Below are positions 44,001 to 45,681 of a DNA stretch of 64,000 bases, piece after piece; within the stretch, counting starts at the first letter, position 1, and each line of letters starts with the position of its first letter. The stretch lies in NCBI RefSeq assembly GCF_054482525.1, contig NZ_CM137006.1, one strand, 5' to 3'. A program made the position numbers.

Positions 44001-45681
44001 AACGCCTGCATAAAGCGGGATATCGTCTGGTGATGCTAACCGGGGATAACCCAACCACCGCCAATGCGATCGCCAAAGAAGCAGGGATTGATGAGGTGAT
44101 AGCCGGGGTGCTACCGGACGGTAAAGCCGAAGCGATCAAACGTCTGCAAAGTGAAGGACGTCAGGTGGCAATGGTGGGCGACGGCATTAACGACGCGCCA
44201 GCGCTGGCCCAGGCGGATGTCGGTATTGCGATGGGTGGCGGCAGTGATGTTGCCATTGAAACCGCGGCGATTACCCTGATGCGCCATAGCCTGATGGGTG
44301 TTGCAGATGCGCTCGCGATTTCCCGCGCAACGCTGCGCAATATGAAGCAGAACCTGCTCGGTGCGTTTATCTACAACAGCATTGGTATTCCGGTCGCCGC
44401 CGGTATTTTGTGGCCGTTCACTGGAACACTGCTTAACCCGGTGGTTGCCGGAGCGGCAATGGCGCTCTCGTCGATTACCGTAGTGAGTAACGCCAACCGA
44501 TTGCTGCGGTTTAAACCGAAGGAATAAGTACATCATTACGGATGCACTGCTTTAGGGTGGCGCATCCGTTATAGGGAAATTATTCTACGCGACCTTTTTT
44601 GCACGCATACAAACACATCAAACAAGTCCCCAACTCCATTTGCGATTTGCGCCATCCCTCCCCGCGCGCTAGCATGATATTTCACAAAGGGAGGTCGTAT
44701 GGATCTGTTGTACCGGGTAAAAACGCTTTGGGCCGCGCTGCGCGGTAATCATTACACCTGGCCTGCTATCGATATCTCTCTTCCCGGCAATCGCCATTTT
44801 CATCTGATTGGCAGTATTCATATGGGCAGCCACGATATGGCTCCCCTGCCCACCCGTTTGCTCAAAAAGCTCAAAAACGCCGATGCGCTGATCGTCGAGG
44901 CGGATGTTTCCACCAGCGATACGCCTTTTGCTAATTTGCCTGCCTGCGAGGCGCTGGAAGAGCGCATTAGCGAGGAGCAACTCCAAAACCTGCAGCACAT
45001 TAGCCAGGAGATGGGCATTTCTACCTCACTCTTTTCTACCCAACCGCTGTGGCAAATCGCGATGGTTCTTCAGGCGACGCAGGCACAAAAACTGGGGCTG
45101 CGGGCAGAATACGGTATCGATTACCAGCTATTGCAGGCGGCGAAGCAACAACATAAACCCGTGATTGAACTGGAAGGGGCAGAAAACCAGATTGCCATGT
45201 TGCTCCAGCTCCCTGACAACGGACTGGCGCTGCTGGACGATACGCTGACCCACTGGCACACCAATGCACGGTTGCTGCAACAAATGATGAGCTGGTGGCT
45301 GAATGCGCCGCCGCAAAATAATGAAATAACGCTGCCTAATACGTTCAGTCAATCGCTGTACGATGTGCTGATGCATCAGCGAAATCTCGCCTGGCGGGAC
45401 AAATTATGCGCCATGCCGCCGGGGCGCTATGTGGTCGCAGTCGGTGCACTACACCTGTATGGAGAAGGGAATTTGCCGCAGATGTTGCGCTAAAAAAATG
45501 GCCAATATCGCTATTGGCCCGTCAAAGAGGAATTTCATTTTTTTATTATTATGCCGTCACTTTAAGCGACGGTGTAACTCGATTGTCGCTCAATCTCACC
45601 ATCCTGCCAATACTCTTAGGCAAGATGACTCTTTTTTTTGGACCGCCATCAGGCGTATGCTTGCTTCGTTTTTTTGTTTAA

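What the first reader, a model, noticed from the sequence alone, without database searches (positions are those of the whole stretch)
44528..44698. ybaQ appears to be missing between copA and ybaP
As recalled for K-12, a 113-aa HTH gene (ybaQ) lies between ybaP and the 3' end of copA. Here the copA stop and ybaP start are only 171 bp apart, with a stem-loop and promoter-like sequence but no ORF of that type on either strand. This would be a small strain-specific deletion and depends on my recollection of the K-12 map.
Basis: inference. Interest (0 to 1): 0.3.

Follow-up and report, generated by a model that had tools for sequence, protein, structure and literature searches.

The report
Known lineage-wide ybaQ antitoxin gene deletion
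This E. coli strain lacks the small regulator gene ybaQ between copA and ybaP because of a clean 373-base deletion. The same deletion is found in about 3% of complete E. coli genomes, and loss of ybaQ in phylogroup D has already been published, so the finding is real but ordinary.

Summary
copA ends at 44527 and ybaP starts at 44699. The 171-bp spacer has a stem-loop but no HTH ORF.

The absence is a deletion scar, not a gene that was never there:
- 44585-44606 is identical to the last 22 bp of ybaQ (minus strand, ...RAKKVA*).
- 44607-44630 is identical to sequence that lies upstream of ybaQ only in toxin-less ("solo") ybaQ alleles.
- Against the E2348/69 allele, the window differs by one clean 373-bp deletion with a 2-bp GC microhomology. 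It removes 320 of the 342 bp of ybaQ and 53 bp upstream.

The deletion is not strain-specific. The identical junction occurs in 183 of 5,426 complete E. coli genomes, and two carriers differ from the window by 1.0-1.5% in their flanks. The window is about 100% identical to SCU-102 and to PCN033, a phylogroup D strain.

Across the species the locus has several forms:
- higB-1 toxin plus ybaQ: 1,267 genomes.
- Any ybaQ: 4,834 genomes.
- This scar: 183 genomes.
- Spacer replaced by a dispersed repeat: 347 genomes.

Rousset et al. already reported that YbaQ is the HigA-type antitoxin and repressor of higB-1, and that phylogroup D lost both genes. The only new details here are the exact breakpoints and the allele counts. 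Interest is low.

The parts
42023..44527 (+). copA (copper-exporting P-type ATPase, 834 aa). It is intact, with its stop codon at 44525-44527.
   Evidence: ORF list. RefSeq annotation of the 100% identical strain SCU-102.
44538..44569 (.). Stem-loop just after copA (ACGGATGCAC ... GCGCATCCGT). It is probably the copA transcript-end hairpin. In ybaQ-bearing strains it lies between the convergent copA and ybaQ genes.
   Evidence: RNA fold -24.4 kcal/mol, z = -3.45. The hairpin is conserved in the E2348/69, WB61 and carrier alleles. It has no T-run, so the terminator scan does not call it a canonical intrinsic terminator on the + strand.
44585..44606 (-). Remnant of the ybaQ 3' end: 22 bp covering the last six codons plus the stop codon and one further base (...RAKKVA*).
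   Evidence: 22/22 identical to the ybaQ 3' end in E2348/69 and WB61, and 21/21 in K-12. Coordinates.
44605..44607 (.). Deletion junction. The GC at 44605-44606 matches both sides of the intact allele (2-bp microhomology). 373 bp are missing relative to E2348/69 (L005 1231-1603).
   Evidence: BLAST endpoints overlap by 2 bp. The 40-mer across the junction is 100% identical in 183 genomes.
44607..44630 (.). Remnant of the sequence that lies 54-77 bp upstream of the ybaQ start codon in toxin-less (solo) ybaQ alleles. It is absent from the higB-1+ybaQ allele.
   Evidence: Alignment A1. Identical to E2348/69. No match in WB61.
44631..44698 (+). ybaP-proximal spacer shared by all alleles. It includes a 7-bp tandem duplication ATTTGCG x2 (44638-44651), which is shared with E2348/69 and other carriers but not with K-12, WB61 or YL03. 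It also includes the GGGAGG ribosome-binding site (44689-44694).
   Evidence: Alignments A1 and A2. Coordinates.
44699..45493 (+). ybaP (TraB/GumN family, 264 aa). It is intact.
   Evidence: Pfam PF01963, E 1e-42. Annotation.

Best explanation
The 171-bp copA-ybaP spacer is the scar of an old 373-bp deletion. The deletion removed the HigA-family antitoxin and HTH repressor gene ybaQ (320 of its 342 bp, including the start codon) together with 53 bp of its upstream region. The parent allele had already lost, or never carried, the partner toxin gene higB-1.

Shown here:
- the exact breakpoints;
- the 2-bp GC microhomology, consistent with slippage or illegitimate recombination;
- the retained ybaQ tail and upstream fragment;
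- the wide distribution of the identical junction.

Inferred:
- Once higB-1 is absent, YbaQ has no toxin to neutralise and its loss costs nothing. The locus therefore decayed from a toxin-antitoxin pair to an orphan antitoxin and then to nothing.
- The scar was inherited by descent within phylogroup D.

copA, its hairpin, ybaP and the sroB/ChiX gene downstream are untouched.
For: - **Scar anatomy.** 44585-44606 matches the ybaQ 3' end and 44607-44630 matches solo-type ybaQ upstream sequence.
- **Single gap.** Both flanks align to E2348/69 without gaps apart from one 373-bp gap (and a single 1-base indel far downstream), with a 2-bp endpoint overlap.
- **Distribution.** The junction 40-mer is 100% identical in 183/5,426 genomes. 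Carriers ST70 O7:H15 and 118UI are colinear with the window over 9.8 kb at 99.0% and 98.5% identity, and their junctions are identical.
- **Species-wide counts.** ybaQ is present in 4,834/5,426 genomes and higB-1 in 1,267.
- **Protein families.** YbaQ is HTH_3 (E 3e-11) and the neighbouring toxin is HigB-like (E 2.7e-32).
- **Near outgroup.** Escherichia sp. MOD1-EC7003 has solo ybaQ at the same site.
- **Lineage.** The window is about 100% identical to PCN033, which is phylogroup D (PMC4578781).
- **Literature.** Rousset et al. (bioRxiv 10.1101/2020.05.25.114553) report that ybaQ is essential only where higB-1 is present, that ybaQ knockdown derepresses higB-1, and that phylogroup D lost both genes.
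Against: - The direction of change rests on parsimony and one near outgroup.
- The last eight residues of YbaQ are not conserved in plasmid HigA homologues, whose alignments stop at residue 105. The 22-bp tail is therefore not proven to be an intrinsic part of the gene family.
- The sequence upstream of solo ybaQ shows no significant similarity to the higB-1 region. How the solo allele relates to the full toxin-antitoxin allele is unresolved.
- I could not search the whole genome of this strain for a second ybaQ copy.
- That all 183 carriers belong to phylogroup D is inferred, not tested.
Confidence: 0.9

Rival explanations
1. The 171-bp spacer is the ancestral empty site. ybaQ, with or without higB-1, was inserted later in other lineages, and the last six codons of ybaQ were supplied by the target sequence.
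For: Toxin-antitoxin modules are mobile. The C-terminal tail of YbaQ is not conserved in plasmid HigA homologues. The locus is structurally variable, with at least four allele classes.
Against: - It needs an insertion of exactly 373 bp carrying a truncated gene that happens to complete its reading frame and stop codon from the target.
- The same 22-bp tail is present in both the higB-1+ybaQ and the solo alleles.
- ybaQ is present at this site in 89% of genomes and in a near-outgroup Escherichia species.
- The published phylogenetic reading is loss in phylogroup D.
Confidence: 0.05
2. Assembly or sequencing artefact: ybaQ is present in the real genome but was collapsed out of this assembly.
For: None. 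It is considered only because short deletions can be assembly errors.
Against: The identical junction is seen in 183 independent complete genomes from humans, dogs, chickens, wild animals, soil and wastewater. No repeat flanks the junction that could cause a collapse, only 2 bp of microhomology.
Confidence: 0.01
3. The scar allele arose once but has spread between lineages by homologous recombination of flanking core DNA rather than by vertical descent.
For: Carriers differ by 1-2% in their flanks. The only intact allele with identical junction flanks is in a B2 EPEC lineage (E2348/69), not in a close relative of the window.
Against: 1-2% divergence is ordinary for within-phylogroup comparisons. 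The literature assigns the loss to phylogroup D as a clade. No mosaic boundary was seen in the 9.8-kb colinear alignments, though this was not tested formally.
Confidence: 0.15

Closest known systems
higB-1/ybaQ type II toxin-antitoxin locus of E. coli (Rousset et al., bioRxiv 10.1101/2020.05.25.114553)
   Same: Same chromosomal site between copA and ybaP. [quoted passage not shown] The window belongs to that group.
   Different: The window holds neither gene, only a 22-bp ybaQ tail and 24 bp of upstream sequence.
Solitary (orphan) antitoxin YbaQ of E. coli K-12 (RASTA-Bacteria, PMC2374986)
   Same: The K-12-type toxin-less allele is the kind of allele from which the window's scar derives. The upstream remnant 44607-44630 matches it.
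   Different: K-12 keeps an intact 113-aa ybaQ and also has three REP/BIME copies between copA and ybaQ. The window has neither.
YL03-type ybaQ-less allele (347 complete genomes)
   Same: It also lacks ybaQ and higB-1 at the same site. Its flanking genes are 99.5-99.8% identical to the window.
   Different: The whole spacer from the copA stop codon to CAACTCC is replaced by a 376-bp segment that contains a ~270-bp dispersed repeat. No ybaQ remnant remains and the 7-bp duplication is absent. It is a separate structural event.

Membership tests
ybaQ / HigA-family antitoxin gene (is it present in the window?) | An ORF of about 113 aa with an HTH_3 (Xre-type) domain between copA and ybaP on the strand opposite to them | tested here: not met
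   No such ORF exists in 44528-44698. tblastn with YbaQ against the whole window gives a best E of 2.6. The reference YbaQ itself scores HTH_3 at E 3e-11.
ybaQ deletion scar | Residual sequence identical to both edges of an intact allele, joined at a single point, with the rest colinear | tested here: met
   44585-44606 matches the ybaQ 3' end and 44607-44630 matches the solo-type upstream region. There is a single 373-bp gap against E2348/69 with a 2-bp endpoint overlap.
higB-1/ybaQ type II toxin-antitoxin module | A HigB-like (RelE/ParE fold) toxin gene immediately upstream of ybaQ | tested here: not met
   The toxin (PF05015, E 2.7e-32 in WB61) has no tblastn match in the window (best E 0.51). 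It is present in 1,267/5,426 genomes.
Phylogroup D E. coli (the lineage reported to have lost both genes) | Core-genome placement in phylogroup D | tested here: inconclusive
   The window is about 100% identical over 24 kb to PCN033. PCN033 is assigned to group D and clusters with 042 and UMN026 (PMC4578781). No Clermont typing or core phylogeny was done on the window itself or on the other 182 carriers.
   The junction is in 183 genomes. The two carriers compared differ from the window by 97 and 143 substitutions in 9.77 kb.

The most novel reading that the evidence does not exclude
The copA-ybaP spacer may be a recurrent hotspot of structural turnover, and the solo ybaQ allele may not be a simple toxin deletion.

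The spacer has been remodelled independently at least four times in E. coli:
- the higB-1/ybaQ module;
- a toxin-less allele with 101-bp stepwise REP expansion;
- the 373-bp scar;
- replacement by a structured ~270-bp dispersed repeat that has a sub-threshold resemblance to TwoAYGGAY RNA.

The sequence upstream of solo ybaQ is unrelated to the higB-1 region. That would imply a more complex origin of the 'orphan antitoxin' than the published loss model.
Probability: 0.15. Interest if true: 0.3.

Novelty: already known. Interest (0 to 1): 0.08.

Why it matters
It matters little. The case is a tidy, base-pair-resolved example of the last step in toxin-antitoxin decay: toxin lost, orphan antitoxin kept, then antitoxin lost. 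It confirms that YbaQ is dispensable where higB-1 is absent. In practice, the 40-bp junction sequence is a simple marker for one ybaQ-less lineage. Annotators should not expect ybaQ in about 11% of complete E. coli genomes.

Tried and rejected
1. **Homology of the solo ybaQ upstream region to the higB-1 promoter or toxin region.** blastn-short and global alignment with shuffling found no significant similarity beyond the shared ybaP-proximal anchor; 76 of 500 shuffles reached the observed score. The idea that the solo allele is a simple in-place toxin deletion is unsupported.
2. **Outgroup polarity from genome contigs.** The 21-mer of the ybaQ tail returned only one locus, Escherichia sp. MOD1-EC7003. 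This is useful but thin.
3. **Whether the YbaQ C-terminal tail is intrinsic to the family.** tblastn against plasmids showed that the closest homologues (78% and 67% identity) align only to residue 105. The test was uninformative.
4. **Rfam on the spacer.** Nothing was found at the gathering threshold or at E <= 1 beyond chance-level hits.
6. **UMN026 (NC_011751.1).** I tried to fetch it as a phylogroup D reference, but it is not in the collection.

Full report
**Observation.** The window is Escherichia coli. Positions 44000-45300 are 100% identical to strain SCU-102, and 5,422 of 5,426 complete E. coli genomes match this stretch. copA (834 aa) occupies 42023-44527 on the + strand. ybaP (264 aa, TraB/GumN family, Pfam E 1e-42) occupies 44699-45493 on the + strand. 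The spacer between them is exactly 171 bp.

The spacer holds a stem-loop at 44538-44569 (fold -24.4 kcal/mol, z = -3.45). Only mechanical ORFs of 31-49 aa cross it. The consensus scan finds no sigma-70-like promoter in it, and no Rfam family matches. tblastn with YbaQ and with the HigB-like toxin finds nothing in the whole 64-kb window.

In a K-12 derivative (J53) the same spacer is 794 bp. It contains ybaQ (342 bp, opposite strand) and three REP/BIME copies, which score as naRNA4 in Rfam.

**What is there.** A multiple alignment of five alleles and pairwise BLAST show that the spacer is a deletion scar.
- 44585-44606 is identical to the last 22 bp of ybaQ. On the minus strand it reads ...RAKKVA followed by a stop codon.
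- 44607-44630 is identical to sequence that lies upstream of ybaQ only in toxin-less ("solo") ybaQ alleles. It is absent from the allele that carries the toxin.
- 44631-44698 is shared by all alleles and carries the ybaP ribosome-binding site.

Against EPEC strain E2348/69 the two flanks align without gaps apart from a single 373-bp gap (L005 1231-1603) and a single 1-base indel far downstream. E2348/69 has solo ybaQ, no REP elements, and a spacer that is otherwise identical. The alignment endpoints overlap by two bases (GC at 44605-44606), which is a 2-bp microhomology. The deletion removes 320 of the 342 bp of ybaQ, including the start codon, and 53 bp upstream. A 7-bp tandem duplication (ATTTGCG x2, 44638-44651) is shared with E2348/69 and with other carriers, so it is unrelated to the deletion.

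**Population picture.** A 40-mer centred on the junction is too short on either side to match half-sites. It is 100% identical in 183 of 5,426 complete genomes, from humans, dogs, chickens, wild animals, soil and wastewater. Two carriers, O7:H15 strain ST70 and strain 118UI, are colinear with the window over 9.77 kb. They differ from it by 97 and 143 substitutions (99.0% and 98.5% identity) and from each other by 2%. Their junctions are identical. The deletion is therefore an old, lineage-level allele and not strain-specific.

Counts across the species:
- ybaQ DNA is present in 4,834 genomes.
- The upstream RelE/ParE-fold toxin (HigB-like, Pfam E 2.7e-32) is present in 1,267 genomes.
- By subtraction, about 3,570 genomes have solo ybaQ and 592 have none.
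- Of the 592 without ybaQ, 183 carry this scar.
- Another 347 carry a different allele (YL03 type), in which the whole spacer is replaced by a 376-bp segment containing a dispersed ~270-bp repeat.

Solo alleles also vary in 101-bp steps in the span of the match, which fits differing numbers of REP copies (spans).

**Lineage and literature.** Over 24 kb the window is about 100% identical to SCU-102 and to PCN033. PCN033 is a porcine ExPEC strain assigned to phylogenetic group D, clustering with 042 and UMN026 (PMC4578781).

Rousset et al. (bioRxiv 10.1101/2020.05.25.114553) reported the following:
- ybaQ is essential only in B2 and F strains that carry higB-1 upstream of it.
- ybaQ knockdown strongly derepresses higB-1.
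- higB-1 is absent from most phylogroups, including K-12.

YbaQ was flagged as a solitary antitoxin as early as 2007 (PMC2374986). The biological content of the finding is therefore already published.

**Mechanism.** Shown: a single 373-bp deletion with 2-bp microhomology, from a REP-less solo ybaQ allele. Inferred: once higB-1 is absent, the antitoxin has no toxin to neutralise, so its loss is neutral and the locus decays from a toxin-antitoxin pair to an orphan antitoxin and then to a scar. The neighbouring genes are intact, as are the copA hairpin and the sroB/ChiX sRNA gene at 45492-45575. No effect on them can be read from sequence.

**Polarity and caveats.**
- The rival reading, an ancestral empty site with later insertion, would need a 373-bp insert of a truncated gene that completes its frame from the target. 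It is contradicted by ybaQ being at this site in 89% of genomes and in a near-outgroup Escherichia species.
- The outgroup sample is thin, because only one locus was returned.
- The YbaQ C-terminal tail is not conserved in plasmid homologues.
- The solo-type upstream region shows no significant similarity to the higB-1 region. How the solo allele arose from, or relates to, the full module is unresolved.
- I could not scan the entire genome of the strain for an ectopic ybaQ. The counts are consistent with none: 530 identified ybaQ-less alleles against 592 genomes with no ybaQ match.

**Verdict.** It is correctly interpreted as a deletion but wrongly described as strain-specific, and it is already known at the level of biology. 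Interest is low.

Noticed in passing
L003 827-1202 (E. coli YL03; not in the window): In 347 complete genomes the copA-ybaP spacer is replaced by a GC-rich, hairpin-rich segment that contains a ~270-bp dispersed repeat. The repeat has a median of 3 copies per E. coli genome. One copy lies unannotated between aqpZ and lysO in K-12. It gives a sub-threshold, full-length Rfam hit to TwoAYGGAY RNA (RF01731: 31.5 bits against a gathering score of 43, E 0.0045), and one perfect hairpin carries an ATGGAT loop. The window has no copy.
   Followed up: partly
window 12717-39195 (- strand): An island that I recall is absent from K-12. It holds a giant SiiEA/BapA-related adhesin read as two ORFs (16055-30937, 4,960 aa; 30913-37737, 2,274 aa) that overlap by 25 bp. 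This suggests a frameshift or a split gene; the homologue in strain ST70 is annotated as frameshifted. The island also holds two upstream ORFs of 720 and 391 aa (12717-16051), possibly type I secretion genes (assumed from size and position, not checked), and a TolC-family outer-membrane protein gene (37840-39195).
   Followed up: no
L002 829-1143 (K-12 J53) and spans: Solo ybaQ alleles differ in 101-bp steps in the span of the match (1722, 1823, 1924, 2025 and 2227 bp), which fits differing numbers of REP/BIME copies between copA and ybaQ. The REP copies score as Rfam naRNA4. The window and the higB-1-bearing allele have none here.
   Followed up: partly
window 44538-44569: The window's copA hairpin carries two substitutions in its 5' arm (A at 44538 and 44546, where carriers ST70 and 118UI have G). 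These change one base pair and introduce a bulge.
   Followed up: no
window 45492-45575 (-), 56222-56345 (-), 59968-60032 (-), 51256-51333 (-): Rfam hits at the gathering threshold: sroB (ChiX) sRNA just downstream of ybaP, STnc490 Hfq-binding RNA, the dnaX frameshift element, and one REP/naRNA4 element.
   Followed up: no
NZ_CP137697.1 33803-34141 (E. coli plasmid record, 128.8 kb): A ybaQ copy that is 100% identical at the protein level sits on a record classed as a plasmid. Two plasmid places were also seen. This could be a chromosomal segment captured on a plasmid or a mis-assigned contig.
   Followed up: no
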